A stretch of DNA of 64,000 nt, taken from positions 61,380,001-61,444,000 of the forward strand of contig NC_042998.1 in the NCBI RefSeq assembly GCF_006345805.1. Direction: 5' to 3'. This stretch comes from Octopus sinensis. Its lineage: Eukaryota. A model generated the notes under the pieces. The model was given only the letters and a program-made list of their open reading frames with translations, was not told where the DNA came from and searched no databases. This document shows, in pieces, positions 173 to 61,344 of this stretch. The first letter of the stretch is position 1. Each line of letters starts with the position of its first letter. The translations under genes were made by a program, and so were the position numbers.

Positions 173-269
173 TTGATATAACCATAAAAGATTGCTGTAA
201 GAATGTGTAAGACTAATGATATTCCACAGCTAATGTGAGACAAACAAATAAGTGTTGCTCGGGGGCATC
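173..269 (-). CDS. Adhesion GPCR exon M: transmembrane helix 1
   Basis: gtttcAG / GTaagc, 97 nt, phase 1-2; (G)CPRATLICLSHISCGISLVLHILTAIFYGYI, resembling aGPCR TM1 (xGCGISxxxLxxT); the other two frames have stops. Confidence 0.85.
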
Positions 270-475
270 CTGAAACAGACACAAACGACAACATATTAAC
301 TCACCCTCCACTTCATTTCATCTGTGTCAATCAATATAAATCATAAGTGGATATAGCATTGATGTAGAAAACGAGGACTACAGTAAACTGCATTAGAAAC
401 AATGTATTATTGGGCTTTCTTCTATTATGTGTTACACAACTCTAATATGAATTTTCACTGCCTTCATAATGTATA

Positions 476-1333
476 TCAGGTTGAATAAAAAGTTGAACCA
501 TGAAGAATTTGTACCGGATTTTGGCAGAGTTTTGAATTTTTTGAAAAAATTTTCTTGCAATTGTCTGATAATAGAGACATAGACTTGCCCAAATGCATCA
601 ATAAATTAACATTGATATTTTTTTCAATGTTGTTACAATCATCTGAAATGGAACTGTCAAAGAGTGATATTCGAGCAATTTTGCTATTCAACTTCAAAAA
701 AGGACGTACAGCAGATGAAAAAATGTTCTTTGCAGTTGCTGGAGCAAAATGAAGCACCAGAAACCTTCTCTAAACCCAAGCTCTTCAAAAAGAAGGTAAT
801 GGTGATTGTTTGGTGGTGTACTGCTGGACTCATCCACTATAACTTCTTAAAACCCAGCAAAACCATTACTGCAGAAACATATTGCCACGAAATTGCCAAA
901 ATGAAAAACTGCAATTCCTTCATCACAGATTGGTCAACAGAAACAGGCCAATCATTCTTCATGACAATGCTTGACCTCATGTTTCACTGACAATTCTCCA
1001 GAAGTTGAGGGAACTTGGCTACAAAGTTCTTCCCCACCCAGCTTATTCCCCAGATTTTTCTCCTGCAGACTACCACTTTTTTAAGCACCTTGATGGTTTC
1101 CTGCGAGAGAAGGAGTTCAAAAATCAAACCAATGCCGAAAGTGCATTCAAAGAGTTCATTAGCTCCAGAACTCCAGATTTTTATGTTAGCAGAAGAAACA
1201 AACTTGTAACTCGTTGACAAAAATGTGTTGATTTCAATGGTACTTATTTTGATGAACAAAATTTCCTCATTCTTGAAATATATTGTGATGAGTTTTATGT
1301 TTTAAAACATTGCTTACTTTTTACTCAACCTGA
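476..1333 (+). mobile_element. Internally deleted mariner transposon
   Basis: TIRs TCAGGTTGAATAAAAAGT / ACTTTTTACTCAACCTGA flanked by TA; remnants KVMVIVWW, HDNA and LPHPAYSPDFSPADYHFF (YSPDL motif). Confidence 0.9.
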
Positions 1334-2060
1334 TATATAAGACATCTAAGTAGAGGCAGAATGTACCACCAATCCATAGATTTTTAGCTTAAATTCAATG
1401 AAGATATAACTTTGTACAGGTATTGGATACATGTCCTTTATTGACATGAAAGTCTCAGGCAGAGAAATCCAATGAATGGAGAGGAATCACGAAGAGGCCA
1501 AGGGTTTAACATCTGATCAACGATCATGTTTAATGTGCTATGGAGGTTTGTTATACCTTAAATATGACTCTGTTAGTTAGACAACACAATAAATTTCAAA
1601 ACCAGGAGAAATGATTCTGCCTCCCTCCAATTCATATCAATGCTGGAGGAATTCCTATGCATTTCATTGAAAACGGTAGTTTGATACCTCTAAAAGGTAC
1701 CATCCTGAATTCAAACTAATAACAGAAATAGCAACAAGAACAGTGCTGTCTTACCATTTATCAACCCTAATAAAATTAAAACTCTTGATATATTATCAAA
1801 AAAAAAAAAAAGCAAAATTCTCTTATCCCCCTATAATCAATTTTTAAATATTGTAATCTCATATATCTAAAAATCACAAATGCAACTCTCATTTCAATCA
1901 AAAATTTAAGGATAACAATACAATAATCCCTATTAATATTTCTATAATACCAACCAACACAAAGTCCAGTAGGTGTGTTAGTATATACAACTCTTTAAAA
2001 TCATTGATACATAAATGTAACTGCTGAATTACTGGTAATTATGACTTGTCATATTGTTAC

Positions 2061-2202
2061 CAACCAGTAGAGTAAAACTTGTAAGGTGGTTACAGGAACA
2101 AACTACTTTCTCTCCAGGCACATAGGTGGATGTTTTACAGCCATTTGTTGACCAACGGGGTTTCTGATCAGAGGATTCATCCCAATAAGCACACTGTTGG
2201 TT
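2061..2202 (-). CDS. Adhesion GPCR exon L: GPS motif and tethered agonist (Stachel)
   Basis: tttttcAG / GTaaca, 142 nt, phase 0-1; NQQCAYWDESSDQKPRWSTNGCKTSTYVPGEKVVCSCNHLTSFTLLV-G, canonical GPS with HL|T autoproteolysis site. Confidence 0.95.
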
Positions 2203-2414
2203 CTGAAAAAATAGAAAAATTAAAATTTTGATAATTTATTTAATCAACTTGCTTTGTAATTAGAATACATGTTTATTATTATGTCTACCTATTTGACATA
2301 GAAAACATCAGAACAGACCATTGTCATTTGTATTTGGTTATTATTAACATTGTAATTCCCATATCACAGGCTGGGACAGTTTAGCGGACCATTCCATCTC
2401 ATTTATAGATTTAC

Positions 2415-2780
2415 TCTTTTACTTGTTTCAGTCATTTGACTGTGGCCATGCTGGAGCACCACCTTTAGTCGAGCAAATCGACCCTAGGACGTATTTTTTG
2501 TAAGCCTAGTACTTATTCTATTGGTCTCTTTTGCCGAACCGCTAAGTTATGAGAACGTAAACACAACAGCATTGGTTGTCAAGCGATGTTGGGGGGGGGG
2601 GGACAAACTCACACACATACGACAAGCTTCTTTCAGTTTCCATCTACCAAATCCACTCACAGGGCTTTGGTTGGCCTAAGGCTATAGTAGAAGACACTTG
2701 CCCAAGGTGCCATGCAGTGGGACTGAACCCAGAACCATATGGTTGGTAAGCAAGTTACTTACCACACAGCCACTCCTATG
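2415..2780 (-). mobile_element. tRNA-derived CORE-like SINE (major family in this window)
   Basis: Reverse-complement head GGCTGTGTGGTAAG...GGTTCAGTCCCACTG followed by CCTTGGGCAAGTGTCTTCT; many further copies, e.g. 24290, 28920, 29880, 30310, 31225, 33480, 48620, 51015, 58190. Confidence 0.85.
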
Positions 2781-2939
2781 CCTATGTATATTCTTATAAT
2801 TTACACTGCATCCTATATTCTTATACTTGTTTCAAATCTACTCAGGGCTTTGTTCCACCCAAGGCTATAGTAGAAGACACTTGCCCAAGGTGCCATGCAG
2901 TTGGACTGAACCCACTCCCATACCTATATATATATTTCG

Positions 2940-3235
2940 AGACAAAGTTTCTGAAAATGTTAAGATTAAGAAAGAAAACTTCTTACAGAGTAGAATGGTG
3001 TGAATCTTTAGGAAGGAATTTCACAAATTGTGTGTAGGCTTTAATAAATGTATAAATGCTTTCAGTTTTCAATGTCATCCAGCACATGTTATGGCTGTTG
3101 TATGAAAGTGCTTGCACATTTATTAGAGCCTACACACAATTTCTTAAATTTCTTCCTAAAGGTTAGTACCATTCTACTCTCTAAGAAGTTCTTTTCTTAA
3201 TCATAATTTTTTGAAAAATTCTTTTTCTAAATATT
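2940..3235. repeat. Degenerate long inverted repeat
   Basis: Arms such as aacttcttacagagtagaatggt...attgtgtgtaggct vs agcctacacacaat...accattctactctctaagaagtt. Confidence 0.75.
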
Positions 3236-3301
3236 ATAGCTGTAACAAGAAATTTCCTAAATTATATATATATGTATGTATATATATATATATATATATA
3301 T

Positions 3302-3632
3302 ACAATTGCAGCATGGAAGGTGTTTATAAGCCATTTAAGAAACACACAAAAGCCGTTCGATTCACTTCAACATTTAAGTTTAATTTGTCAAAATATTTTC
3401 GTCGCTAAAATCCGCGACGTGTTCACTGACAAAAACCCGTGCTGCATCCTTTGTCAGTGAACACGTCGCGGATTTTAGCGACGAAAAATATTTTTTTGAC
3501 AAATTACTTAAAGTGAATGAACGGCTTTTGAGTGTTTCTTAAATGGCTTATAAACACCTTCCACACTGCAATTGTTTTCGTTTCAGCACACGATCTCAGA
3601 TCAAATTACTTGCTATGCGAGTACAACTCCGT
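3302..3632. mobile_element. Palindromic Penelope pLTR-like element in (TA)n
   Basis: Near-perfect inverted arms 3302-3433 / 3450-3575 plus short unique tail, between (TA)n runs; each arm carries a hammerhead-like motif. Confidence 0.7.
3384..3433 (-). ncRNA. Hammerhead-ribozyme-like motif with G3:C8 core swap
   Basis: Minus strand UUUGUCA-GUGAACA-C-GUCGC-GGAUUUUA-GCGAC-GAAA-AUAU-UU-UGACAAA: 7-bp stem I, 5-bp stem II, palindromic minimal stem III. Confidence 0.65.
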
Positions 3633-3640
3633 AATATATA

Positions 3641-4051: not shown

Positions 4052-4130
4052 ATATATATATATATATATATATACACATACATACATACATACATACATA
4101 CATATGTACACTGCTATTATTCCCTAAGGG

Positions 4131-8577: not shown

Positions 8578-8706
8578 CTGATATACTGAATTGAATGATA
8601 CGGTTACTGGTTCATTGAGGTTAGTTATCTGAATGTTAGGAATATTTGCAGAAATAATATGACTGGTACTTTTGTTATATTCTTTGGTAGAAGATGTTTG
8701 TATCAC
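8578..8706 (-). CDS. Adhesion GPCR exon K: GAIN subdomain B
   Basis: ctttacAG / GTaaca, 129 nt, phase 0-0; VIQTSSTKEYNKSTSHIISANIPNIQITNLNEPVTVSFNSVYQ (S.IISA...NL.EPV.xxF motif). Confidence 0.92.
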
Positions 8707-8849: not shown

Positions 8850-10130
8850 ATACACAACACAAATTCATGAAATTCCCCTCTAAATAGGAAATGGACTAGA
8901 AGAAGCCATTGCAGTCTTTAAATTTATTGAAATCCAAAAGCAAATAAGATAATAATTAAAAAAAACATACAAAGTCAGAAACCCTGTGTACAAAACTATA
9001 ATGCCAGGTTGAATAATGTTGCAAAAATGATGCAAAATGGGGAAATTATGATATATTTCAATGATATTCTCATGCAATACAGCAACAATAGTGTGTCTGA
9101 CCGTCACCTTTCTAAATTACTTCAAAAACATGTGATTTCAGGCTCTCAATCATCTTCTGCTGCAGACCAGTAAAAGATCTTTCCAGGCCTTCTTTATTGT
9201 CATTTTGAGTTCACCAACAGATGAATACTGTTTGCCTTCACTGTACACAACGTTCATGAGATAACCCCAGGCATTCTCTAGGGGATTAAGGTCAGGACTT
9301 CTTGCTGACCATGTCATGACTTCAACCCCGATTGCATGAAGGAAGTCTAGAGATGCCTTCGTTTTATGAATAGGAGCGTTGTCCTCTTGAAATATGAAGT
9401 TTTCTCCACACAGCTTTCTTCCTTCTTTGTCGATGTCAGCTCCGTCCAACATATCGATGTATCACACAGCATTGAAATGGCCATCCTTGATGACAAGTGG
9501 CAGCTTCCCAGTGGCAGCTATTGCTCCCCATACCATAAGATCTCCTCCAATACATTTACCTGCCCAGTAATATTTATAACCGTCATCGCTGTCCAAATTC
9601 CATTTTTTCTCACCAGAGAACAGAACCCTGGTCCATTTACCATCTCACTGATGCGGCCTAGCAAACTTCAGTGTAACAGCTTTGTGGGAAGGGGACAATA
9701 ACGGATGTCCTAACCACTTATACGGGTGGAAACCAGGGTTCAAAATCACTCTTCATATGGTGGATATCAAGGCTGATGTTTTGATTTTGAAAACAGAAGA
9801 GCAGCATGACTTCTTCACAACTCTGACAATAACCCTTTCATCCTTTTCCGATATAGCCTTGGGAGGTCCACCAGCATGAGCCTTGTAGTAGCTATCAGGA
9901 TCTTCAGAAAATTGTCCACTAGTGTTCTGCTTTGCTGAATCTTCTCGGCAATCTTCCGGTTACTCATTCCTTTCACTTTCAGAGCAAGGATCTTCTCTTG
10001 TTTAATTTCACAAAGCTTTGTAGCTTTAGGCATACTGGAAATGTCATCTGGATCATGGGGAATATGATTGAGTTGAATATTTTCCAAAAGAATCTGGAAT
10101 GGTAGCTTTATAGTTTTGAAGAGTTGATAT
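8850..10130 (-). mobile_element. Degenerate Tc1-type transposon
   Basis: HTH GMSNRKIAEKI (ORF 9815-10246); FIFQEDNAPIH and WSARSPDLNPLENAW (ORF 9150-9452); boundaries approximate. Confidence 0.85.
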
Positions 10131-10994
10131 GCTAGGGATAAAACATCATGGTCATATAAGTGGTGTTCTTTGTTTCCAGTTTTGCATGAGGACATGTCTA
10201 GCCACAAGGAAAGACTACCTTGTTTGAAACAAGAGAGGGTTATCAACTGGAAATCAGGCTCAAGGAATCCTGCCTAGCCTTCACAAGCATGGAAAAATGA
10301 ATCTTAAAACAATGTTGACATTATATGTTTTTATGTGTGTGTGTGTGTATGCCTGTGTGTGCCTGTACCTGTGTGAGTGTGAGAGAGGGAGAGGAAGAAA
10401 GAAAGAAAGAGAGTGTGGGGGAAAGTGAGTGTGTTTGTGTATGTGTGTCTCAAAGAAATTTTTCTTAAGGGACTTGATGTGTTATAACGTAGGGTCCTAA
10501 TGACAAAATATTATAACTTGACCTATTCTGCATTTGCATTTAATTCATAAATGTTAAAAATATAATTATTTTACTCTACAGCTGTATCAAGTGTATGTAT
10601 TGATTGAATTTAAACCCAGCCAACTCCTGAATAAATCAGTGAATGTTTTGTTTGTTGATATATTTATATTGGAACAAAGATCCTGAATAAACTAAGGATG
10701 TCTGGAGTATTTGTTGCTGTGGGGTCCAAAACAGACCAAAATTCAGATATCAATTGATTTGTTGATGTCACTTCTGAGTGAGATGTGTTTCTAACACACC
10801 AAGTCCCTTAGAAGAGGGACAAGTGCTGTTCTGAGTTTGTATATGCATTATTAATGGTACACGTACACACACATACACATACAAACACACACACATATAC
10901 ACCTTTCATCATTTTATCATTTGTCTTTTGCTTGTTTCAGTCATTAGTCCACAGCCAGGCACAGCACAACCTTGAAGAATTTTTGGTCAACGGC

Positions 10995-12420: not shown

Positions 12421-12564
12421 CTTGTATAGTTTATCATCCTCAATGAAGAAAAAAGAAATTCGGGAAATGGATGATTGTTCTTCACTTTTCAGATGTTGAA
12501 ATAAACTCCTTGGCAATGAAATGAAGATCTTCATTGTATCTTCTGGCTGTGAGGAGTTGTATAT
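12421..12564 (-). CDS. Adhesion GPCR exon J: GAIN subdomain B
   Basis: tttgtcAG / GTatgg, 144 nt, phase 0-0; IYNSSQPEDTMKIFISLPRSLFQHLKSEEQSSISRISFFFIEDDKLYK (IxLPxxL and RIxF...xxLF-type GAIN motifs). Confidence 0.9.
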
Positions 12565-14145: not shown

Positions 14146-16281
14146 CACTGGTCAACAAAATGAAACTTCTTTTATTCATCAGAGTTGCTGATTGACTTTT
14201 CTGGGTTAAATTTTGATGCTGATTACGAATCTGAAGTTCGATTTCCTCTATCAGGTCACATTTTCATGTTAATGATACCTTCTGTTTTAACTTATAGAAT
14301 ACGTAAAGCATGTCTATATTAAGTATATTGAATACAAGATATGATAATTTCATGGCTTTTTATTGTACAAAATCAAAATTATTGTGTACAAATAAGTTAG
14401 AATACACTTAAATGCATAACAACTTAAAATCTTTGGGATTTGGACTTTCTATGGTGTTTTGTCTCAGGTTCATCCCTGTGTAACACCCAACAGTAGTCAG
14501 CTAACATTCTTGCATTCCGAAATCCTTGATATCGTTGTTCATCGATGCAATATCTTGATGAAAGCATTCCCCTTGCTCACCAGACACTGCTCCAAGGTTC
14601 TCTGCAAAAAAAGTCTAGATGTGAATCAAGAAAATGGACTTTTAGTGACATCCAACAGCCCAGCGTAGGAGTCTAGAAGACATTTCACTCCATTTCTAAA
14701 CTCTAGAGATCTCTTGTTGCCTAGGAAATTTTCACAGAGCCATTTGAAGGATTCCCAGGCTTTTAGCTCAATCTCATCCAGTACTGTAAGAAAGTGGTTG
14801 TCCTTCAGAAATTCTTTTATCTGAGGAGACCTAGGAATACGCCCTCCTTCAGTTTTGCCTCGGTGATTTTTGGAAATTTGGCCTTCACATATTCAAAACC
14901 TTTTGAGCTTTTCCTGGCAAGTGTCTTCACGAATTGTTTCATGAGGCCAAGCTTTATGTGATGAAGGAAAAAAAGAACATTTTCTGGGTTTAAAAGTGGC
15001 TTACTCTGGACGTTAGAAACTCCTGGCTCATATGATTTTCGCAAAGGCCACTCTGATTGCACATAGTGCTTGTTAGTTGCACGCCTGTCCCATAGGCATA
15101 AAAAGCTACAATATTTGGTGAACCCAGATGGCATTCCCATCAACATTCTAATCACCTTCAAGTCTCCACATATTTTCCAGCTGTAGTTTGTATACTTTAT
15201 GGCATTGAGGAGTACTTTCATGTTTTCATAACACTCCTTCATGTGTACTGAATGTCCTATGGGAATGGATGGTTTCTTATTGCTGTTGTGTAGTAGTACT
15301 GCCTTGAGGCTTCTCTTAGATGAATCAATGAATAAGCACCATTCAGCTGGAACATGCTCTTGGAACAAACAGCAAAATAACTCATCAGTGTTATTACTGA
15401 AACAAAGTAGTCCATCAACAGAGAAGCATGAAGTCAGGTCCCTATTTCTCTTCCTGAAATGAGTAATACAAACATCTTTCTTAAGCAGACACTTTTCTTG
15501 TAGGTGAGTTCAGCTTTATCCTTCAACAATGACAAGTCTCTAACTAAATCATTTAACTCTCCTTGAGAAAATTTCTGTGGTATGTCTTCATTTTCAATTG
15601 TGAAATCTGCATCCACTTTGGTCTCTTCCACAGCAGTAGTATTTTCTTCAGGAAACACATCTTCATCAGACATCTGAAGGCCATTTTCTGGTGGTATTGG
15701 AATAAGAAGATCATCATCGTTGTGTGGTACTGGTCTTCTTGTTGATTCCAAGTTGGGATACACAATCTTATGCTTGGTCTTTACAGTAAACCCACATACA
15801 TTAACGTTGCAGAAATAACAGTCCAAGAAATGATCCTTTGGCTCTCTCCATATCATAGGTATTGCAAACGCCATTGCTCTCTTCCTCTTATTTAGCCAAT
15901 CCCTTCGTCCATTTGAACAAACTGAACAGATGATGTGCGGGGCCCAACTCTTATCTTGTTCCCCAAGAGAGCAGCCAAAATATAACTGGTGGATCTTCTT
16001 GATTTCACTTGTGATGGCATGTTGCTGAGCTTTGGTGGTAAATGAACCACAGATATGACAAAATATATCAGGACTGTTCTTGCAATGCCTTAACATAGAA
16101 TTTACCTATATAAGAGGTTTATGTGTAGTGATATTGCTGATGGAAGTTATACACCTCTCTTATCTCATCAGAAAAACTGTGCCTGATAGAAGGAAACCGA
16201 TTATATTTTTGAAATCTGCAGACAAAACTACATATAAAACACCATGTAATATCCCTGATGAAAATTGGCTGTTGACCAGTG
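14146..16281 (-). mobile_element. Full-length Chapaev3-like (CMC) DNA transposon with frameshifted transposase
   Basis: TIRs CACTGGTCAACA / TGTTGACCAGTG with TAA duplication on both sides; ORFs 15434-16096 (CxxC, WREPKDHxxDCYFC) and 14817-15368 (FIDSSKRSLKAVLLH, ICGDLKV, HIKLGLMKQFVK), then HLDFFAENLGAVSGEQGECFHQDI; family name from recalled motifs and CAC/TWA ends. Confidence 0.8.
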
Positions 16282-18232: not shown

Positions 18233-18404
18233 CAATGTCTTGGCTTTAGTTTCAGGATTTCCAGGTAAAACACCAAAAGAAGAACCATTGAAAGTGTCGT
18301 TTTCCACTTTGATAACACCAATACCAAGATTAGAATATAAAACTGTGACTTGCTGTTCTTCCAGTGAAATCTGGTCTGGGATTGTTTCTATAATGTCCAG
18401 CATT
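18233..18404 (-). CDS. Adhesion GPCR exon I: GAIN domain
   Basis: cttatAG / GTacaa, 172 nt, phase 2-0; MLDIIETIPDQISLEEQQVTVLYSNLGIGVIKVENDTFNGSSFGVLPGNPETKAKTL. Confidence 0.88.
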
Positions 18405-18834: not shown

Positions 18835-19066
18835 CTGGTGACACTTCTACCAGCTTGTTCTGCCCCATTCAAAATCCTCTCTGGTGTGTCTTCCATATTG
18901 TTAATACTAAGCAGTATATTGTTCAGAGTTATATTTGTGGACACCCTCGATATCAATGGCACCATTTTCTCATGAATGTCCACAGCCAAATTAAAATCTT
19001 CTTCTTTGAAATACAATGATTTCTCTGAAATATTCCTGAGCTGTCTTGAGAACTTTTCGATATTTC
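18835..19066 (-). CDS. Adhesion GPCR exon H: GAIN subdomain A (helical)
   Basis: ccattgcAG / GTaata, 232 nt, phase 1-2; NIEKFSRQLRNIS...NNILLSINNMEDTPERILNGAEQAGRSVT-R. Confidence 0.88.
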
Positions 19067-22628: not shown

Positions 22629-22798
22629 CTTCATTAATGTCTTGTCTGTCGATGTCTTTGAGTTTCTGAGTGATCCATTCTGTATTGTTACACAGAGACA
22701 TTTTTGGTTTTTGCCAGACACCAGTAAATGGTTTACACTTTTGTGTTGTGTTCGAGTGGCTTGTTGGAATTCCTAGATGTAAAGCTGTGCTGTAAGAA
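22629..22798 (-). CDS. Adhesion GPCR exon G: HRM second half
   Basis: tttttcAG / GTaagt, 170 nt, phase 2-1; SYSTALHLGIPTSHSNTTQKCKPFTGVWQKPKMSLCNNTEWITQKLKDIDRQDINE-G (GxWxxPxxxxC). Confidence 0.88.
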
Positions 22799-25700: not shown

Positions 25701-25815
25701 CAGTATCTTGTTGCTATATTCGCATGACATGGAATTGTCACAGAAGTTCCTACTTTTGTCATTGGCCAGTTGAAAGATATATTGTCAGTAAATATTGTGT
25801 CTTCATTACAAATTG
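25701..25815 (-). CDS. Adhesion GPCR exon F: hormone-receptor motif (HRM), first half
   Basis: ttttacAG / GTtcgt, 115 nt, phase 1-2; (A)ICNEDTIFTDNISFNWPMTKVGTSVTIPCHANIATRY-C matches HRM pattern C..WPxTxxG..PC..ATRxC. Confidence 0.9.
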
Positions 25816-33196: not shown

Positions 33197-34003
33197 ATAT
33201 ATATATATATGACTTAGATAGCTGAGATTTATTTCAGCCATAACTAACTCAATAGCATCACCTGGAAAAGTCTTTTAATTAATTATTTCGGGGCACCATG
33301 GACTACTCATACAGGGGTTGTTGGCTGAGACGTATCCAGGCATAGGTGGTTTATCAAGTATTTCCAGGAAGAATTTGTCCAGGTACCATTTGAAAGTTGT
33401 GGGGTCTTCTTCTACTTTAATTGCTTTCAGAATAACATTGAAAAGTGCAGTATATATATTATATGTTCTTTTCTGTTATTCTACTTGTTTCAGTCATTTG
33501 ACTGCAGCCATGCTGGAGCACTACCTTTAGTCAAACAAATCAACCCCAGGACTTATTCTTTGGAAGCCTAGTACTTATTCTATTGGTTTCTATTGCTGAA
33601 CCGCTAAGTTACAGGAACATAAATACACCAGCATTGATTGTCAAGCGATGTTGGGGTGACAAACACAGACACACAAACACACACACACACACACACACAT
33701 ATATGATGGGCTTCTTTCAGTTTCCATCTACCAAATCCATTCACAAGGCTTTGGTTTGCCTGAAGCAATAGTAGAAGACACTTGCCCAAGGTACCTCACA
33801 GTGGGATTGAACCTGGAACCATGTGGCTGGTAAGCAAGGTACTTACCATATAGCAACTCCTGCACCTATATAAATATAATATATATATGAGTGTGTGTGT
33901 GTGTCTTTGTGTTTGTATTTTATTAATGCTATCACCTTGTGCTGATAATTATATGATGATGATGATGAGATAAAAATGATTAGCAACGCACTGCTTCTTT
34001 CAC

Positions 34004-34152
34004 CAATTATTTCCGTGTTATGTTGATCAAGCCCCAAATTATGCAATGTCTGCGATGTATTCAGAATATCACGAATATTCTGCTCAACTTGATCTTTGAT
34101 TTTGTTTTGTACTGCACAATATATTGTAAATATTTCTTTATTTGATTGCATT
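34004..34152 (-). CDS. Adhesion GPCR exon E (C-terminal part of SEA-like domain)
   Basis: atttcAG / GTgaaa, 149 nt, phase 2-1; MQSNKEIFTIYCAVQNKIKDQVEQNIRDILNTSQTLHNLGLDQHNTEII. Confidence 0.8.
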
Positions 34153-35634: not shown

Positions 35635-38228
35635 TATTTTTCGAGCACTATCCAGAGTATTCAAGCAGTTCCAAGCAGTGCTGTTTTCTGTAAGTGCTCC
35701 ACCCTTATTGCAGCCTCTATTTGTTCCATGTACTTCTCAAGATTTTTACTCACTGTTCCCAGGGCTCCAACAATTATTGGTACCACTACCACCTTTTTCA
35801 GCGACCACAACTGCTTAACCTCCCAAGCTAAACTGTTATATCTATCGACTTTTATTTCTTCCTTATTGCATACCTTGTTGTCAGCTGGACATACTATATC
35901 TATGATCCAGCATTGTTTGCTTTCTTTCTCAATTAATACTATGTCTGGTTTCTTATTCACATTATTATTATTATTATCATTCAGTAGACTTATTTTTATC
36001 CCGTGCTTTCATTGCACAACCGAGTGCAGCTCTGTGTGCCTTGGGTATGTGCTATGGTTTGTTGTGATGCTCTTATGGTTACTGTATTGAAAGTGTTTTA
36101 TGTAGGATGTATGCAGTGCCTAGTAGTGCTATTTTTTGTATGTTATATATATTTGTTAGTCCTGGTGTTTTTATTATATATTTGTCTGAATATTTTTAGC
36201 ATACCTAATGTACCTATTATGACAGGAATTGTTTCTGTTTTAAGACTCCTCATTCAAGTTACCACTATTTCCAGGTCTTTGTATTTTAAAATTTTTTCGT
36301 TTCTTTTTGAGAAACATTGTCATCTGTTGGTATTGATACATCAATCAGAAAGCATTTTTTTCCTCATGATCTCTGACAACTATATCCAGCCTATTGGCCT
36401 TAATTTCTCTATCTGTGTGTATTGGCATATCCCACAGTATAGTTGCTTTCTGATTTTCTGTGATCTTTTCTGGTGTGTGCCTCTACCGTCTTTTTTCTGT
36501 TGTTATTCCATAGTGTTGGTAAAGCTTCCTGTGTATATAGGTACCAACTCTGTCGTGTCTGGGAATATATTGCTTCTTAGCCAGGACTGGGCAGCCAGAG
36601 ACAATATGGTTTATTGTTTCTTATCCATCTCCACATATTCTGCAGTTACTTGTTATGTTTCTTTCATAATATGTTTTTGGTAATTTCTGGTGGGGAGGTT
36701 TTGATCTTGTGCTGCAATTAAAAAACTTTCAGTCTCTGCTTTGAGTCCTGAGCTTCTCAGCCATTGTTGGTTTTTGCTTAGTCTATTTCTTTTGTGTTTA
36801 GTTTAGTCCAGTATTTGGCATAAAGGGGCTTTTCTTACCATCGTTTTATCATGATCCATTGCTGTTCCAGTTTTAGTTTGGATTTCATTTGTTTTACAGC
36901 TTTTGTTGTTTCTTCTTTTCCTTCATTGTTGTTGGGTACTATGACTTCTTTTTTATATTTATCAGCTTCCTTAAAGACTAAAAACAGTTTTTTGCTTTGT
37001 TCATGCTTTCAGGCTCTGCTATTTGCATTAGTTTTCCTTGCTTCTGAAGTAGCTATTTTTGTAGACCTATGGTGGTTATTTTGTAATAGTTTTCTAGCTG
37101 CATAAGACCTCTGCCACCTTCTATACATTGTATATATAACTTTTCTATGTCAGATTTAGGGTGGTGCATCCTAAGTCCTGTCATTATTTTTCTTATTTTC
37201 CTGTCTATTTTGATTAGTTCATTTAGTGTCCTGTTAAGGATATTGTAGCTGTAACTTATAATTGCAATGGCTAGAGTGTTGATACCTATTATCATGTTTT
37301 TCGTCTATAGTATTCTTTTTATTTTCTCTTTCTTTTGTGTATGTTGTGTGTATTCATTGATTCCTAAGTATTATTTCATTTGCTTTATCTAGTATGATGT
37401 TGCTACTCTTCACTAGTTTTCCTCATTTCAAGGTTGCTTTGGCACATTTTCTTCTAAGCCAAATTTCATGTATATTTCTTTGATAAATCCATGTACTGCC
37501 TGTAGTAATGTTTCCAGCTGTTTATCTTTTGTAGTGTACAGTCTTAGGCCATCCATATATAAGAGGTGGCTGATTGTTTTGCCGTAACAGTTGTATCCAC
37601 AGCCAGTTCTGGTTAGCATGTCAGATAAAGGTGTCAGTGCCAAGCAGAAAAGGAGTGGAGAGAGTGAGTCTCTCTGGAATATTCCTCTTCTAATGGGATG
37701 GCTTTGGTTTTTATGAGTCCCTCTTTTATCTGGAGCTGTAGCACTGTCTGCCATTTATTCATGGAATGTGCTATATTATTTTATGATTATTGGTGCTACC
37801 TTGTTCATGGCTAGTGTTTCTAGGATCCATGTGTTGGGAATACTATTAAAAGCCTTTCGGTAATTGATCCAGGCCATACTTAAACCCTTCTTCTTTCTGT
37901 GACTGTCTTCAGTTATGGTTTTATTGATCATTAGCTGATTTTTACAGCTGTATGAGCCCTTCCAGCATCCCTACGGCTCTTCTAGAAACAGGTTGTTTTC
38001 TTCCAAATACTTGCTCATCCTCTGCAATATTATTGTAGTAAAGGCTCTGTAAATTGCAGGGAGACAAGTTATTGGTCTGTAATTTTGTGAGTTTGCTGTT
38101 TCAGTGGATTTATTTGGGAATTAGAATAGTTTTCCTTCCCGTGAGCCATTCAGGCATTGTCTCTGGCTCTGCTAGTATGTCATTAAATTTCTTAGCCAGC
38201 TTTTTATGTGTTCCTGTCAGATATTTTA

Positions 38229-38260
<32 letters not shown>

Positions 38261-38660
38261 GCCTTTGCATAGCTTCTAACACTGGAGATGTATTACAGTG
38301 TCAGCTGTTCACTACCAGTGAACTAAGGTAACACCTCTTATTTTTTGAGCACCTTCCAGAGTATTTGAGCGGTTCCAAGCAGTGCTGTTTTCTGCAAGTG
38401 CTCCACCCTTATTGCAGCCCCTATTTGTTTCACGTACTTCTCGAGAATTTTGCTCACTGTTCCCAGGGCTCCGACAATAATTGTTACTACTGCTACCTTT
38501 TTCATCGACCACAACTGCTTAACTTCCCAAGCTAACCGGTCACATCTCTTGACTTTTCTTTCTTCCTTATCGCATACCTTGTTGTCAGCTGGGCATGCTA
38601 TATCTATGACTCAGCATACTTTGTTTGAGCATGCTATATCTGTGATACAGCATAGTTTGA
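35635..38660 (-). mobile_element. R4/Dong-like non-LTR retrotransposon fragments with restriction-like endonuclease, in (TAA)n
   Basis: KPDIVLIEKESKQCWIIDIVCPAD RLE motif (35661-35960, second copy 38312-38640); RT motifs RRGIFQRDSLSPLLF and ISHLLYMD (37428-37754); segments bounded by (ATT)n. Confidence 0.85.
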
Positions 38661-41513: not shown

Positions 41514-41566
41514 CCACAATATTCAACTTTGAATACACCTGTCATGCTTAAAAACTCATGTTCCAG
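41514..41566 (-). CDS. Adhesion GPCR exon D (SEA-like domain)
   Basis: ctattgcAG / GTaagc, 53 nt, phase 0-2; LEHEFLSMTGVFKVEYC-G. Confidence 0.75.
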
Positions 41567-45560: not shown

Positions 45561-45649
45561 AGATCTGGATATGTTTTCATTTAACGGTCGGTTCTGGCTC
45601 CCAGAAGTCATTGAGTAAATCAGATGGAATTCCAAAATATTGTGCCACC
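45561..45649 (-). CDS. Adhesion GPCR exon C (start of SEA-like domain)
   Basis: ttccatAG / GTgagt, 89 nt, phase 1-0; (G)WHNILEFHLIYSMTSGSQNRPLNENISRS; phases match exons B and D. Confidence 0.75.
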
Positions 45650-52784: not shown

Positions 52785-55700
52785 ATGAAAATGCCTAAAA
52801 ATCGATCACCGCCACCACAACAACCCTCTTCTTTTCAGGCGCCGAATTGCACCCCTCCCCCCACATCTCCTTCCCAGTTTTCAGAGTTGGCACTGTCAAT
52901 GTTGGTACACTGAAAGGTAGGTCTAGTGAGATTGTAGAGATGCTTGAGAGAAGACGGGTTGATGTATGCTGCATACAAGAGGTAAGGTGGAGAGGTGCTT
53001 CAGCCAGGGTCCTCACAGGCAAGGCACATAGGTATAAAGTCTTCTGGCAAGGTAACATGGATGGGGTAGGGGGTGTAGGCATTCTCCTTGCGGAGAAATG
53101 GGTGGATAAGGTCATAGAAGTTGTCAGGGTTTGCGACAGAGTGCTTAAGCTCAGGTTAGTCCTACAGAGTGGCACGGCTACGATTATCTCCGCCTATGCC
53201 CCACAAGCGGGCCTACCAAATGATCAGAAGGACCACTTTTATGATACCCTTCTACAGGCTATCTCAAAGACTAGTGGCAAGGACCTCATCTTTGTGGGTG
53301 GAGACTTTAATGGGCATGTTGGGCGGGAATCGGGTATCTTCACTGGGGTTCACGGTGGCCATGGTATTGGCTCCAGAAATGAGGAGGGAACTAGACTACT
53401 GGAATTCTGTGATGCATGTAACCTTTTAATCTGCAACACTAACTTCAGGAAGCCTGACTGCCACCTTATAACTTATCAGTCAGGGGACTCCGCTAGCCAA
53501 ATAGACTTCATCCTCACCAGACAGCGGGATGCAGGGTCGCTCTTAAATACAAAGACTCTCCCGGGTGAAGAGTGTATCCCTCAGCATAGGCTAATAATTA
53601 GTGACTTTAGGCTTGAGGCCAGAAGGACTCCAAGAAACAGACCAATCCAGAAAAGAAGGATTTGGAAGCTAAAGAACCCTTCACATGGTCAGAGATTTAG
53701 GGACATCCTCATCAAGAAATTTGATGAGAGGGAGGAGGAGCTACAGACGTCAGACATAGAAGGTAGCTGGAAATTCCTACGGGACAGCTTGCTGAGTGCC
53801 ACAGACCAAGTCTGTGGATGGTGCATAGTCCCTTCCAGACCTAGAGTTACGTGGAGGTGGAATAGTGCAGTAGACAAAGCCATTAGTTCTAAGAAACAGG
53901 CCTGGAGAGCCTGGAGGGATGGGGGTAGCAGGGAACCGTACCAAGTAGCCAAAAGGGAGGCCGGGCGGCAGGTATACATAGCCAAAGATATAGCAGAAAA
54001 GAAGAAGTTTGCCAATGTCCAGCGACGTGAGGACCAAAGAACTGAGGTATTTCGTATTGCTAGACAGTGTGTGAGAGAAAATAGTGATGTTACAGGAGTG
54101 AAATGTGTCCGCATGGATGATGGGGCACTTGCCTTTAATGTGGAGAATGAATGGGAGGAGGAGAGCCTGCCAAATGTTGACCCAGTAGAGGGACCAGCTA
54201 TCCGAATAGACGGCTCCCTAGTAGATACAGCAATTAAGGATATGAAACCGGGTAAAGTCCCCGGCCCATCAGGAATCACTGCTGAGATGCTTAAAACAGC
54301 TGGTTATGTGGGCTTTGGCCTAGTCACCCGTATTGTTAACCAGGTAGTTCACAATGGAGTCATACCCAATGACTAGCGTAGCAGCACCATAGTCAACTGC
54401 TACAAGGGTAAGAGTGATGCTCTAGATAGAAATAACTACAGGGGTATTAAACTGTTGGATCAGGTGATGAAGACCACAGAGAGGGTCATAACCCATCTCA
54501 TTAGGGAGAGAATTTGCTTAGATGAGATGCAGTTCGGTTTTGTGCCAGGTAGAAGCACCACTGATGCTATATTCCTGGTCCGACAACTTCAGGAGAAGTA
54601 CCTAGCTAAAGATAAACCCCTCTACATAGCTTTTGTGGACTTGGAGAAAGCCTTTGACAGGGTTCCCCGATCCCTTATCTGGTGGTCGATGCAGAAACTG
54701 TTGATTGACGAATGGCTAATAAGGGCTGTACAGGCTCTATACAGAGAGGCTGTCAGCAAGGTTAGGATTGGCAACGAATATAGTGAAGAATTCCGGGTAG
54801 AAGTAGGTGTACATCAGGGCTCAGCCCTCAGTCCCCTTTTATTCATCATAGTCCTCCAGGCAATAACAGAGGAATTCAAAACAAGTTGCCCCTGGGAGCT
54901 CCTCTGTTCTGATGACCTGGCCCTCATAGCAGAATCACTACCGGAACTAAAAAAGAAATTTCGGATGTGGAAACAAGGGTTAGAATCAAAGGGCCTTAGA
55001 GTAAATGTAGTGAAGACCAGTTATAGTATGCAGAAAGGCGAACTCAGCACCCCCCCCCCATCGGGCAGGTGGCCCTGCTCGATCTGTAGGAAAGGTGTAG
55101 GTAGAAACTCCATAAGATGCACCCAGTGTAAGCTATGGACGCATAAGAGGTGCAGCAACATCAAAGGGAAATTAACTGATAAGATAGCTTTCATGTGCGG
55201 CAAATGCACAGGGACAATAGACACCACAGACACTCAAAAAACAGATTCCATCACACTCCAGGGGGATAAACTAGAAGTAGTTGATAGTTTCCGCTACCTG
55301 GGTGACCAAGTTAGTAGTGGGGGTGGATGCTCAGAGAGTGTCACCACTAGAATACGAATAGCCTGGGCAAAGTTTAGAAAGCTCCTACCCCTACTGGCGA
55401 CAAAGGGTCTCTCACTCAGAGTGAAAGGTAGATTGTGTGATGCATGTGTGCTAACCTCCATGCTTCACGGCAGTGAAACATGGGCCGTGACTGCAGAGGA
55501 CATGCGTAGACTTGAAAGAAATGAAGCTAGCATGATCCGCTGGATGTGTAATGTCAGTGTGAATGCACGACAGAGTGTAAGCACCCTGAGAGAAATGCTA
55601 GGCATAAGAAGCATCAGATGCGGTGTGCAAGAGCGACGCTTGCGATGGTATGGTCATGTACTGCGGTTGGATGAGGAGAGATGTGTGAAGAAGTGCCACT

Positions 55701-57246
55701 CCCGAACAGTTGAAGGAATCAGGGGGAGAGGTAGACCCAGGAAGACATGGGATGAGGTAGTCAAGTATGACCTCAGAGCGTTGGGCCTCACTGAGGCAAT
55801 GGCGAAGGACTGAGACCTCTGGAGATGTGCTGTGACTACTAAGACCCGGGATGCTCCCGGCACCAGTTCCGCATACCCCTTGCCCATCCAAAGTACCTTG
55901 GATCCCGGAACATCTCACTGTGCTTGAGGAGACCTGTTGAGTCAAGTGCATATACATGAACATCGAACCAAATATCAATGGAAACAGTAGTTGTGATACC
56001 TGTGCCGGTGACACATAAAAAGCACCATCCGAACGTGGCCGTTGCCAGTGCAGTCTCCACTGGCTTCTGTGCCGGTGGCACATAAAAAGCACCATCCGAA
56101 CGTGACCGATGCCAACCACGCCTCGAATGGCTTCTGTGCCGGTGGCACATGAATATCGAACCAAATATCAATGGAAACAGTAGTTGTGATACCTGTGCCG
56201 GTGACACATAAAAAGCACCACCCGAACGTGGCCGTTGCCAGTGTAGCCTCCACTGGCTTCTGTGCCGGTGGCACATAAAAAGAACCATCCGAACGTGGCC
56301 GATGTCAACCCTGCCTCGAATGGCTTCTGTGCCAGTGGCACATGAACATCGAACCAAATATCAATGGAAACAGTAGCTGTGATACCTGTGCCGGTGACAC
56401 ATAAAAAGCACCATCCGAACGTGGACGTTGCTAGTGCAGCCTCCACTGGCTTCTGTGCTGGTGGCACATAAAAAGCACCATCCGAATGTGACCGATGCCA
56501 ACCCCACCTCGAATGGCTTCTGTGCAGGTGGCACATAAAAAGCAACATCCGAACGTGGCCGATGCCAGCACCGCCCCGACTGGCTTCTGTGCCGGTGGCA
56601 CATAAAAAGCAACATCCGAACGTGACTGATGCCAGCACCACCTTGTCTGGCTTCTGTGCCGGTGGCACATAAAAAGCACCAACCGATCGTGGGATCCCGG
56701 AACATCTCGCTGTGCTTGAGGAGACGTGTTGAGTCAAGTGCATGAACATCGAACTAAATATCAATGGAAACAGTAGTAGTTGTGATACCTGTGCCGGTGA
56801 CACATAAAAAGCACCATCCGAACGTGACCGATGCCAACCCCGCCTCGAATGGCTTCTGTGCCGGTGGCACATAAAAGCAACATCCGAACGTGGCCGATGC
56901 CAGCACCGCCCCGACTGGCTTCTGTGTTGGTGGCACATAAAAAGCACCATCCGAACGTGACCGATGCCAGCACCGCCTTGACTGGCTTCTGTGCCGGTAG
57001 CACAAAAAAAAAAAAAAAGCACCAACTGATCGTGGCCGATGCCAGACCCCTCTCGCACCTGTGCAGGTGGGACGTAAAAAGCACCCACTACACTCGCAGA
57101 ATGGTTGGCGTTAGGAAGGGCATCCAGCTGTAGAAACACTGCCAGATCAGACTGGAGCCTGGGGCAGCCCCTGGCTCCCCAGACCCCGGTTGAACCGTCC
57201 AACCCGTGCTAGCGCGGAAAACGGACGTTAAACAATGATGATGATG

Positions 57247-57248: not shown

Positions 57249-57314
<66 letters not shown>

Positions 57315-57419
57315 CATACACATATATACGACGGGCTTCTTTCAGTTTCCGTCTACCAAATCCACTCACAAGGCTTTGGTCGGATTAGTAGATAGAAATT
57401 GAAAGAAACCTGTCGTGTG

Positions 57420-57465
<46 letters not shown>

Positions 57466-58189
57466 GTATGTGTGTGTGTATGTGTGTGTTTGCATGTCTG
57501 TGTTTGTCCCCCCAACATCGCTAGTGTGTTTACGTCCCTGAAACTTAGCGGTTCGGCAAAAGAGACCGATAGAATAAGTGCTAGGCTTACAAAGAATATG
57601 TCCTGGGGTCGATTTGCTCGACTAAAGGCGGTGCTCCAGCATGGCCAGTCAAATGACTGAAACAAGTAAGATATTGTGTATCTTAAAAATATACCTCATG
57701 TAACATTTATCTTTTTTAAAGAAATTGTGGGTGTTGGGCTCTTTTTTTATATACAGGTTACCTTAGCATAGAACAGTGGACCTTTTTGACTACTACGTCA
57801 CTCTGGTGGACACCCCCTAGCCATTTGATGTTTAAAAATTAGTTCTATAGATACTTCTTTCAAAATTCCCCTTTTCCATCCTCACATTCACTTGTGTAAG
57901 ATTGAATTATGAAAAACATTAAGAAATCTTGCTGTTTCTTGTGGGAAATACCTCTATAGCAAAGTTTTTCTCGTGGGCCCTTAAAATAAATCCTGTGGGT
58001 CCCCAGTTTACTATTTTGCTTGTGTGGATCCCCCAAAAAATCTTATAAGGCCCCCTGTTGAGAACCACTGCCACTTACTGCTACTCCTCTCCTTTTGCAC
58101 AAATTGCAGACACTACTCTGATATGCAAGCTGCTCTCCAAACCAGATGATTCTAGGTTCAATCTCCAATAACAAACTTTGTCTTTTGTG

Positions 58190-58512
58190 AGTGGCTGTGT
58201 GGTAAGTAGCTTGCTTACCAACCACATGGTTCCGGGTTCAGTCCCACTGCATGGCACCTTAGGCAAGTGTCTTCTACTATAGCCTTGGGCCAACCAAAGC
58301 CTTGTGAGTGGATTTGGTAGACGGAAACTGAAAAGAAGCCCGTCATATATATGTATATATATATGTGTGCGTGCGTGTATGTTTGTGTGTCTGTGTTTGT
58401 CCCCCTAGCATTGCTTGACAACCGATGGTGGTGTGTTTACGTCCCCGTCACTTAGCAGTTCAGCAAAAGAGACCAATAGAATAAGTACTGGGCTTACAAA
58501 GAATAAGTCCTG
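58190..58512 (+). mobile_element. Major tRNA/CORE-like SINE copy
   Basis: GGCTGTGTGGTAAGTAGC A-box and GGTTCAGTCC B-box-like head, CCTTAGGCAAGTGTCTTCT core. Confidence 0.85.
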
Positions 58513-58514
58513 GC

Positions 58515-58902
58515 AGTGAGTTGATGTCAGTATATAGTATTTACAAAAAGTTGATAATTACGCCAGGATTTTATTTTTGACTGTAAATGTTATATTATTC
58601 ATCTGATTTTAATGAAATTTGAAATTTTGGTAAATTTTGAGGTAAGGGAGATGGCAAAGGTTTTAACTTAATTCCAGAGGAATTGGAAGGCAACAAGCGT
58701 GAGTCAGCTTTTTTCAGAGACTATTCTATCGATTTTCAAGATATGTCACACGTGATTACAGTTGATGTCCATAAGTTGAATGCGGCATACATCTTAATGA
58801 GTACTATTTGGCAAGGGGAACATAGACGATTTCAATACAAGGTCAGAGGTAGGCTTAACTTCAACACGAAAAACATGAGCAACACCGGATCCAACTGCTA
58901 GT
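58515..58902 (+). mobile_element. Helitron-like 3' fragment
   Basis: Ends GAGCAACACCGGATCCAACTGCTAG-T, resembling the 3' end at 4022-4051. Confidence 0.5.
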
Positions 58903-58959
58903 ATAGATATATATATATATATTTTGTGTTTGTTTGTTTTTTTTTTATTTTTGGGATTA

Positions 58960-59010
<51 letters not shown>

Positions 59011-59110
59011 TCCCAAAAATAAAAAAAAGAACAAACACAAAAAACATAACAACACGAGTACGTAGTACAAGTGATGTATTAGCAGACGCTCAGGGAAGGA
59101 AAGAAAGATG

Positions 59111-59146
59111 GTTTAACGTTTCGAACAGACACTCTTCTTCAGAAAC
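59111..59146 (-). ncRNA. Minimal hammerhead ribozyme motif
   Basis: GUUU-CUGAAGA-A-GAG-UGUCUG-UUC-GAAA-CG-UU-AAAC; same family as 42395-42429. Confidence 0.65.
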
Positions 59147-59187
59147 AGAGTAAAGTCCAATAGAAGGGAAGACGGAAGAAAACGATT

Positions 59188-59225
<38 letters not shown>

Positions 59226-59499
59226 CACACACACAACTGCATGTATGCGTGTATATATGTGGTGCCAAGACGTCTTGCAATCATATATCAATAGTTTGTG
59301 AGATTAAATCTGATTCCTTGGCAAAGGTGATATTTTTATAGGTTCCCATGGAATTATTGACCCTTGCTTCACACATACTACTATCGTGCTTGCTAAAGTA
59401 TTGTTATGTCATATGTTTTATGTATAATTATCAAAAAATATTTTCTCATAAACATTAAAAAATCAGGCGTAATTACATCAAAGAATAAACGACACTTAC

Positions 59500-59683
59500 C
59501 ATAGAAACCTCTCTTGTTACACAACTTTCCAGTGCAACAATTTACACAAGAAGTTCCACTACTCCATGTCTTACAAGTAAGGGCATTTTTTCCCATAGCT
59601 TCAACACATTTTCTGTATGTGCTGCAGGATCTTTCTAACTTCCATGTCACACCAGTTATTGAAATTGTATTCTGACATACAGG
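59500..59683 (-). CDS. Adhesion GPCR exon B: C-terminal half of Ly6/uPAR domain
   Basis: ttattacAG / GTaagt, 184 nt, phase 0-1; PVCQNTISITGVTWKLERSCSTYRKCVEAMGKNALTCKTWSSGTSCVNCCTGKLCNKRGFY-G with the CCxxxxCN LU signature. Confidence 0.88.
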
Positions 59684-61272
59684 CTGTAATAATAAATATA
59701 AAAGTTATATACTGCTACTGCTGCTGCTTCTGTTGTTGTTGCTGCTGTTGCTGCTGCTACTACTACTACTACTACTACTACAACTACTACTACTACTACT
59801 ACAACAACAACTACTACTACTACTAACAATGATTATAAAAATATTGTTTGTTTTATCATCCACAAAGGCACTAAAGGGCATAAAAACATGAAACTTCCAG
59901 AAGTTACAAAGAAAGAAAGTATAACGTTTGCATATACAAAGAGAAGGACGTTATATGATACAGGGAAAGAAGTATTAGGAATTTTAAAGGTACACACATG
60001 CACACACACATACAAGCATATACATAGATACACACATATATATATATAGATATACACACACACAGACATATATATATAATATATCATCATCATCATAGCT
60101 TAACGTCTGTTTTCCATGCTGGCATGGGCTGGACGGTTTCACTGAGGGCTGGCAAGCCAGGAGGCTGCACCAGGCTCCAATCTTATCTGGCAATGTTTCT
60201 ACAGCTGGATGCCCTTCCTAATGCCAACCACTCCGAGAGTGTAGTAGGTGCTTTTTACGTGCCACTGATCCCAGGGGCCAGTCAGGGGATACTGGCATCG
60301 GCTGTATATATACACACACACACACACACATATGTATGGCTTAGTGGTTACGGTGTTGCACTCATGATTGCGAGATTGTGGTTTCAATTCCCATGCCAGG
60401 CATTGCATTGTATTCTTGAGCAAAGCACTTCATTTTACACTGCTCTGCAATCATTTCATCATCTGACATGTAGCACATGGTGCACATGTACAGGTAATGT
60501 CGATATGATGGAGGGAATGAGCTTATGTGAACGCAGACGTTTGATCACTATAAACAATCATCAGTGTTGTTGTTTGGTAAGAATTTGCCGGACTCTCATA
60601 CATCGTCTAACGACAAAAGAGTCCGTAACAAACATATTTATATATACATAACAAACAAATTAGCTGGTTAGAAAATCTCTATAACAGATAAAAGCATTAG
60701 CAATACTGAGAAGTAATGTTTATCTGTTCGCCACTTAAACATGGCTCTTCCATAGAGACCAGCATTACTGCTATTTTTAACCCCAGGAGGACGCCTCTTC
60801 CAGCTGGTTATTCAATACAATCTACACCCAATATATACGATGTATAATCCAAACAGGTGAGAGAACTCCCACGTTTTTCTAGCCATGAGGCCACTTGACT
60901 ATACAGTTTCTTTGTGGTCATACACGTTGGTGGATAATCGTGCACTAGAAATAGCAGGAGTTCACTCCAGCTAGCAATACATTGAAAACAAAGTTACACA
61001 TGGTCACTGATCTTGCAACGAGCAAACTAGTTCATTTCCTTATTGCAAGATCAGTGATTATGTGTCGTTTGTTTTTCTATGACTCTTGTGAGGGATATCT
61101 TCTTTCTATAAGATGAATTTAGATGATTTACGACTCAAATAATTGTGATGAAAATATTTCAGAGGAAGATATCATAACATCAACTCATAAGACAATATTT
61201 ACACAGTTTTCAGATATTTATATTTTAGTGACATATTATAACACAAAAGTAAAAAATAACATCTTAATTTAC

Positions 61273-61344
61273 CTCGGCACCTGGACAAATTGTCACATCA
61301 GAATCAGTGCACTTGTTTGTTGAACACGTTTGACATTGCAAATT
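61273..61344 (-). CDS. Adhesion GPCR exon A: N-terminal half of Ly6/uPAR (three-finger) domain
   Basis: tttcaacAG acceptor, GTaaat donor, 72 nt, phase 0-0; translates NLQCQTCSTNKCTDSDVTICPGAE (LxCxxC start typical of LU domains). Confidence 0.85.

What the first reader, a model, noticed from the sequence alone, without database searches (positions are those of the whole stretch)
173..61344. Adhesion GPCR with an N-terminal Ly6/uPAR three-finger domain (LU - SEA-like - HRM - GAIN - TM)
Seen: 13 minus-strand GT-AG exons whose phases (0-0, 0-1, 1-0, 0-2, 2-1, 1-2, 2-1, 1-2, 2-0, 0-0, 0-0, 0-1, 1-2) chain into one stop-free frame of about 582 aa across 61 kb. The LU exon ends in a strong phase-1 donor just after CCTGKLCN with no stop, and the next detectable exon starts in phase 1. 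Established: LU domains are normally GPI-anchored or secreted (Ly6, lynx1, Quiver/Sleepless, three-finger toxins) and often modulate nAChRs and ion channels; I know of no vertebrate adhesion GPCR that carries one. Inference: a lineage-specific receptor uses a three-finger fold as its adhesion or ligand module and couples it to GPS autoproteolysis and tethered-agonist signalling. Most exons are missing or only partly visible in the ORF track.
Basis: partly seen in the sequence, partly recalled or inferred. Interest (0 to 1): 0.88.

Follow-up and report, generated by a model that had tools for sequence, protein, structure and literature searches.

The report
Octopus receptor with internal three-finger domain
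This is a real, spliced octopus cell-surface receptor gene whose outer part carries a small three-finger (Lynx2-type) domain in the middle, behind about twenty leucine-rich repeats; the layout is shared with scallops and such receptors are already reported in molluscs and starfish, so it is a likely signalling receptor of a known kind rather than a new invention.

Summary
The window holds the middle of Octopus sinensis LOC115224769: 13 corrected exons give 612 of 612 residues of that model. (1) The LU domain is internal, not N-terminal: an LRR C-cap exon (62914-62757) was missed, and a signal-peptide exon plus about 20 LRR exons lie upstream. Full layout: LRRs - LU - SEA-like - HRM - GAIN/GPS - 7TM. 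(2) The last two phases are wrong. RNA-type contigs join 2065 to 269, and 4 of 4 runs carry one base the assembly lacks at 241, so the TM1 frameshift is an assembly error. (3) It is not lineage-specific: two scallops have the same layout, and LU-bearing GPCRs are in print for starfish, molluscs and arthropods. Confirmed: spliced contigs join the LU exon to 45649 (30 of 30 bases, two studies), and a family profile matches human Lynx2/LYPD1 (E 2.8e-6, 12 cysteines aligned). The genome has at least 72 LU-exon matches, 27 followed by GAIN and GPS. This scan noted the same architecture before on other octopus DNA. Signalling and ligand are untested.

The parts
62757..62914 (-).
   Evidence: tblastn to P0002 539-596; AG/GT ends and phase; 55 matches in the genome
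61273..61364 (-). LU domain exon a (4 of the 12 Cys); phase 1-0; conserved acceptor is 61364
   Evidence: its 3' end is joined to 59683 in contigs of X1, X2, X9
59500..59683 (-). LU domain exon b (8 Cys, ends CC-x4-CN); phase 0-1
   Evidence: 72 matches in the genome
45561..45649 (-). SEA-like exon 1; phase 1-0
   Evidence: loose ends of X2 and X9 match 30 of 30 bases
41514..41566 (-). SEA-like exon 2; phase 0-2
33992..34152 (-). SEA-like exon 3; phase 2-1; exact donor unsettled (33992 in model P0002, about 34004 in P0003; both phase 1)
25701..25815 (-). HRM exon 1; phase 1-2
   Evidence: Pfam HRM only below cut-off, in relatives
22629..22798 (-). HRM exon 2 and start of GAIN; phase 2-1
18835..19066 (-). 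GAIN subdomain A exon; phase 1-2
   Evidence: helical in model
18233..18404 (-). GAIN exon; phase 2-0
12421..12564 (-). GAIN exon; phase 0-0
8578..8706 (-). GAIN exon; phase 0-0
2065..2202 (-). GPS exon with H-L-T motif and start of the tethered-agonist sequence; phase 0-0
   Evidence: Pfam GPS E 3.9e-13; joint 2065-269 in X1, X2, X9
173..269 (-). TM1 exon; phase 0-2 in the reads; the assembly lacks one base at 241/242
   Evidence: extra base in 4 of 4 runs, and X1 runs on into the TM2 exon about 4 kb beyond the window edge

Best explanation
The window holds the middle of a spliced octopus adhesion GPCR gene with the order LRRs - LU (Lynx2/LYPD6 type, 12 cysteines) - SEA-like - HRM - GAIN/GPS - 7TM, which likely cleaves itself at its HLT site and likely signals when its outer LRR-LU part binds a protein on a neighbouring cell or in the matrix. 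Shown: exon structure, LU-to-SEA and GPS-to-TM1 splicing, all 7TM exons in the flank, LU identity by profile, the same order in scallops, many copies in this genome. Inferred: the LRR array and the LU fingers together form the binding surface; LU-SEA-HRM is the stalk that passes binding or force to GAIN, as CUB-PTX-SEA-HRM does in ADGRG6; the peptide after the cut would act as tethered agonist. The layout predates the bivalve-cephalopod split and was amplified in octopods.
For: 612 of 612 residues identical to P0002 545-1156, no stops. Signal/LRRNT exon and about 20 single-LRR exons upstream, 7TM exons downstream. Spliced joints. Profile A3 (11 relatives plus the window exon): LYPD1 E 2.8e-6, and all 12 PDB hits to E 10 are three-finger-fold proteins. 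Pfam GPS and 7tm_2 above cut-off. Closest solved sequences to paralogue P0009: ADGRG2 1.2e-66, ADGRG6 1.4e-60. Foldseek of the P0003 model: BAI3 HormR-GAIN 2.8e-7, full GPR126 ectodomain 4.7e-7. Pecten and Ylistrum proteins with LRR, 12-Cys LU, GPS, 7tm_2. 27 of 72 LU matches have GAIN then GPS downstream within 70 kb; 56 of 72 have an LRR cap within 30 kb upstream.
Against: No Pfam LU family reaches its cut-off. Both AlphaFold models are poor (mean pLDDT 38.8 and 40.2) and the LU fold search gave no hit at E 0.001. SEA and HRM score below cut-off. An HXS/T motif does not guarantee cleavage (ADGRB2, ADGRG5; PMC13062082). The peptide after the cut reads TSFTLL then D, where most paralogues have M, so tethered agonism may be weaker (the role of that Met is recalled). 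No ligand or G-protein data. The LRR cap-to-LU junction was not tested with reads.
Confidence: 0.8

Rival explanations
1. The LU domain is the real ligand or partner module: like Lynx2 and LYPD6 it would bind nicotinic-type channels or Wnt co-receptors in the same membrane and tie them to G-protein signalling.
For: Closest solved relatives are LYPD1, LYPD6, LYPD6B, which modulate nAChRs (PMC7582953, passages). LU is better kept among seven Octopus copies (55% mean identity, 47% without Cys) than the SEA-like region (37%) or the LRR cap (46%). The starfish authors suggest a Lynx2-like role for LyAr2.
Against: LU is fused at both ends and sits behind SEA, HRM and GAIN, far from the membrane unless the ectodomain folds back (inference). 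The match to Lynx2 is mainly the cysteine frame. No binding data.
Confidence: 0.12
2. The family is an immune or environmental recognition repertoire: variable LRR arrays would sense foreign molecules, and LU is only a rigid spacer.
For: LRR number varies widely between copies; one LRR per 72-nt exon; the O. bimaculoides orthologue has a cytoplasmic Death domain (E 3.3e-6); gill and skin expression of group 3 in C. minor.
Against: The Death domain was seen in one sequence only and survives here as a partial last exon; O. bimaculoides expression of the expanded groups is mainly axial nerve cord, suckers, skin.
Confidence: 0.2
3. This copy is a decaying pseudogene, or the LU exon belongs to a separate GPI-anchored Ly6 gene.
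For: The assembly shows a frameshift in TM1 and model P0002 skips TM1-2; the neighbouring inverted copy has a stop in LU exon a; 45 of 72 LU matches have no GAIN-then-GPS pair found downstream.
Against: 4 of 4 runs carry the missing base; spliced contigs run LU to SEA, GPS to TM1 and TM1 to TM2; no loose end pointing to another terminal exon was listed (4 runs only).
Confidence: 0.04

Closest known systems
LU-domain GPCRs of molluscs, arthropods and echinoderms (Paramonov et al. 2026, PMC13719153; starfish LyAr2/LyAp2, PMC9410279, PMC11595613)
   Same: LU domain in the extracellular region of a 7TM receptor. The starfish ones are annotated as adhesion GPCRs and their LU is closest to Lynx2/LYPD6, as here. 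The 2026 figure legend lists GPS and LRR among the domains drawn.
   Different: I could not see the figures or supplements, so I cannot say whether this octopus gene or the SEA-like and HRM parts are named there. The text read does not link these receptors to the octopus expansion.
Octopus-specific adhesion GPCR expansion, group 3 (Ritschard et al. 2019, PMC6408891)
   Same: [quoted passage not shown] P0004, the orthologue of this gene, has LRR and Death.
   Different: No Ly6, uPAR or three-finger in its main text (0 hits). Membership inferred from the description; its sequence list was not read.
ADGRG6/GPR126 and ADGRG2 (vertebrates)
   Same: Best solved matches for GAIN-7TM; SEA-HormR-GAIN stalk (PMC6954182, abstract and section 11).
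   Different: CUB and pentraxin are replaced by LRRs and LU; no (R/K)-X-K-R furin site in the SEA-like region of the window protein (sequence).
Human Lynx2/LYPD1, LYPD6, LYPD6B
   Same: 12 cysteines, extra pairs in loops I and III, helix in loop III.
   Different: Those are single-domain GPI-anchored proteins; here the domain is internal in a receptor.
ADGRA2/ADGRA3 (LRR-Ig-HRM-GAIN-7TM; layout recalled)
   Same: N-terminal LRR array with caps, HRM, GAIN.
   Different: LU plus SEA-like instead of Ig; the 7TM is nearest ADGRG among solved structures.

Membership tests
Adhesion GPCR | GAIN domain with GPS before TM1 | tested here: met
   Pfam GPS E 3.9e-13; HormR-GAIN structures top the fold search of close relative P0003
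Adhesion GPCR | Secretin-like 7TM | tested here: met
   7tm_2 E 2.3e-12 on P0002 despite two skipped exons; TM1 in window, TM2-7 exons in the flank
Adhesion GPCR | H-X-S/T cleavage motif | tested here: met
   HLT at the end of exon 2202-2065; motif definition from PMC13062082
Adhesion GPCR | Autoproteolysis and G-protein signalling | not testable with these tools
   needs expression and assays
LU / three-finger domain | Cysteine frame ending CC-x4-CN | tested here: met
   12 invariant Cys in 10 of 10 octopus rows; 12 Cys in the three scallop rows
LU / three-finger domain | Sequence homology to a solved LU domain | tested here: met
   profile A3 to LYPD1 6ZSS E 2.8e-6, full length; the narrower profile A1 gave only E 0.21-6.9
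LU / three-finger domain | Pfam LU-clan family above cut-off | tested here: not met
   window exon: Activin_recp E 0.07, UPAR_LY6_2 E 0.46; best among 12 rows 0.00077. Read as library insensitivity, given
LU / three-finger domain | Three-finger fold | tested here: inconclusive
   model pLDDT 38.8; strand-strand-helix-strand order as in Lynx2; top Foldseek rows Lypd6, Lypd6b at E 0.87, 1.5
Stand-alone GPI-anchored Ly6 protein | LU followed by a terminal GPI-signal exon | tested here: not met
   spliced to the SEA-like exon
SEA domain | Ferredoxin-like beta-alpha-beta-beta-alpha-beta fold before HRM | tested here: inconclusive
   that order in the P0003 model, residues 226-321, pLDDT about 56-74; Pfam SEA E 0.013, below cut-off, in Argonauta P0034 only, 1 of 8 scanned; no SEA-only structural hit
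HRM domain | Pfam HRM and Cys/Trp pattern | tested here: inconclusive
   below cut-off in P0018, P0009, P0016, P0045 (E 0.0007-0.044); none for P0002; Cys/Trp pattern present
ADGRG6 orthologue | CUB and pentraxin domains | tested here: not met
   absent from Pfam scans of P0002 and P0004
Ritschard group 3 | Placement in their clade | not tested
   their sequence list not read; descriptive match only

The most novel reading that the evidence does not exclude
The octopus adhesion-GPCR expansion expressed in arm nerve cord, suckers and skin is a repertoire of dozens of LRR-LU receptors whose Lynx2-type finger grips nicotinic-type channels, including the nAChR-derived chemotactile receptors of the suckers, so that touch or adhesion tunes taste-by-touch through a self-cleaving GPCR.
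Probability: 0.06. Interest if true: 0.8.

Novelty: new member of a known kind. Interest (0 to 1): 0.3.

Why it matters
It shows that the known octopus adhesion-GPCR expansion carries an LU domain that Pfam misses, and a likely SEA domain, in a layout old enough to be shared with scallops. That gives a concrete domain map for deletion and binding tests. It also corrects a gene model: one missing base in the assembly hides TM1 and TM2 and makes an intact receptor look broken. The concept of an LU-bearing adhesion GPCR is already in print, which limits the surprise.

Tried and rejected
Pfam on single exons found nothing significant. ESM Atlas gave no usable hit for the LU region or for P0036; this says nothing on novelty. 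No run was on record as RNA; I used runs labelled RNA by guess. AlphaFold models were low-confidence and the LU fold search was not significant. The VIA-align searches never ran because the machine was busy, so SEA has no direct structural match. Acceptor 61344 rejected: relatives keep the residues upstream of it. Donor 2061 rejected by the joints. Pseudogene reading rejected. A complete Death domain in O. sinensis was not found: one partial exon at 45% identity and one weak stop-containing match. The tree used 15 proteins, left out partial or redundant rows (P0001, P0003, P0007, P0012, P0014-P0028, P0031, P0032, P0035-P0044), has no non-mollusc outgroup and is midpoint-rooted, so it does not settle orthology to vertebrate subfamilies. 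No complex was predicted: no candidate partner was in hand. Paper searches; none returned a paper naming the full LRR-LU-SEA-HRM-GAIN order, but the figures and supplements of PMC13719153 could not be read and may show it.
Full report
Identity. One GAIN exon searched against longer proteins gave four Octopus adhesion-GPCR models. Octopus sinensis LOC115224769 (P0002, 1566 aa) matches the window exon by exon. The window is G000:C2:61380001-61444000. Thirteen corrected exons, 62914 to 2065, all AG/GT, give a stop-free chain identical to P0002 545-1156 in 612 of 612 residues.

The key joint is real. Contigs laid on 59390-59705 cover only the exon. Those of X2 and X9 run on into 45619-45648 (30 of 30 bases), and those of X1, X2 and X9 run into the end of exon 61364-61273. 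X1's downstream end differs and looks like a sister copy. X3 touched only 37 bases. No loose end pointed to another terminal exon, in four runs only. The runs are RNA by guess, and contigs show presence, not level.

Correction 1: the LU domain is internal. The window has an LRR C-cap exon at 62914-62757, and the next acceptor is 61364 in phase 1; the residues between 61364 and 61344 are kept in relatives. Upstream tiles hold about 20 single-LRR exons of 72 nt and a first exon with a hydrophobic leader and LRRNT, 68 kb beyond the window (Pfam). The cap-to-LU joint rests on the models and relatives, not on reads.

Correction 2: the 3' end. In the assembly the TM1 exon shifts frame against the O. 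bimaculoides orthologue P0004, and P0002 skips TM1-2. All 4 runs laid on 20-2400 carry one extra base behind 241, three join 2065 to 269, and X1 continues into the TM2 exon, which lies about 4 kb beyond the window edge with TM3-7 further on.

Domain tests. LU: 12 invariant cysteines. Pfam stays below cut-off. A profile of 11 diverse relatives plus the window exon matches human LYPD1/Lynx2 over its full length at E 2.8e-6, and all 12 hits to E 10 are three-finger-fold proteins; the narrower profile was not significant. Lynx2 has six disulfides and a loop III helix (PMC7582953, passages), and the low-confidence model shows the same order of elements (pLDDT 38.8; fold search not significant). SEA-like: beta-alpha-beta-beta-alpha-beta in the model of the close relative P0003 and one sub-threshold Pfam SEA hit; likely, not proven. 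HRM: sub-threshold in four relatives. GAIN/GPS: Pfam GPS, HLT motif, and HormR-GAIN structures as top fold hits. The nearest solved sequences to paralogue P0009 are ADGRG2 and ADGRG6.

Spread. In this genome LU exon b has 72 matches (80 candidates scored, a lower bound), the GPS exon 47, a GAIN exon 45 and the LRR cap 55. Of the 72, 56 have a cap within 30 kb upstream, 27 have GAIN then GPS within 70 kb downstream, and 23 have all three; 22 of the 46 on contigs C1-C30, taken as chromosomes, have GAIN then GPS. Small contigs may be haplotype duplicates and tandem LU copies share one cap. A profile search of 1.84 billion representatives gave 26 proteins. Of the 10 looked up, 5 are Octopus, one Argonauta, one the scallop Mizuhopecten and 3 unnamed. 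The scallop fragment led to full-length Pecten and Ylistrum proteins with LRR, a 12-Cys LU, a similar SEA-like region, GPS and 7tm_2. A 15-row tree groups the window gene with P0004 (100/100) inside an Octopus clade (100/98), with Argonauta, an unnamed protein and the scallops outside (midpoint root). The layout is thus shared by bivalves and cephalopods, and the expansion is octopod.

Literature. PMC13719153 (parts 1-3 of 4 of the text read; figures and supplements not visible) reports LU-bearing GPCRs in molluscs, arthropods and echinoderms, with GPS and LRR in the figure legend. PMC9410279 and PMC11595613 (passages) describe starfish LyAr2/LyAp2 as adhesion-GPCR parts with Lynx2/LYPD6-like LU. 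PMC6408891 (passages) describes the octopus-specific group 3 of adhesion GPCRs with LRR and one Death domain, expressed in nerve cord, suckers and skin, without naming LU. Three earlier notes of this scan reach the same reading on other octopus DNA (none near this locus). They are not independent support.

Mechanism. Most likely a standard adhesion-GPCR cycle: cleavage at HLT, binding by the LRR-LU head, transfer through SEA-HRM to GAIN, and tethered-agonist or allosteric activation (PMC13062082, passages; PMC6954182, abstract and section 11). All of this is inferred. A Lynx-like contact with nicotinic-type channels, including sucker chemotactile receptors, which diverged from nAChRs (bioRxiv 10.1101/2025.03.03.641191, passages), is not excluded but has no evidence here.

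Verdict.

Noticed in passing
G000:C2:61553057-61568636 (+), L011-L013: Head-to-head partial copy of the gene: first exon, LRR cap, LU a with an in-frame stop, LU b with one Cys changed; no LRR exons found between, and it ends just before a 100-N gap.
   Followed up: partly
G000:C2:61320400-61347900, L016-L019: The cytoplasmic tail is coded by 11 tandem genomic units about 2.74 kb apart, each with the same 12-residue exon, then two 20-residue repeat exons. Could be recent amplification or an assembly artefact.
   Followed up: no
L033:2789-2905 (-): Last exon of P0002 is 45% identical to part of the Death domain of the O. bimaculoides orthologue and stops early: a Death-domain remnant.
   Followed up: partly
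G000:C29:1825954-1842411 and 2087014-2117752; C6381: Runs of LU exon b copies 4-16 kb apart, suggesting genes with tandem LU domains or LU-only genes.
   Followed up: no
window 52799-55810 (+): Two long ORFs (525 and 478 aa) of a LINE-like element, endonuclease and reverse transcriptase by eye, in the intron after the LU exon.
   Followed up: no
window 55954-57010: Tandem array, period about 67 and 193.
   Followed up: no
window 14629-16105 (-), 9153-10273 (-), 480-1340, 35664-38610 (-): Decayed transposase-like and LINE-like fragments in introns, by eye; 480-1340 is very high-copy in run X18.
   Followed up: no
window 2065-2085 and 269-258: The tethered-agonist stretch lacks the Met that most paralogues have after TSFALL, and the linker to TM1 is shorter; shared with the O. 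bimaculoides orthologue.
   Followed up: partly
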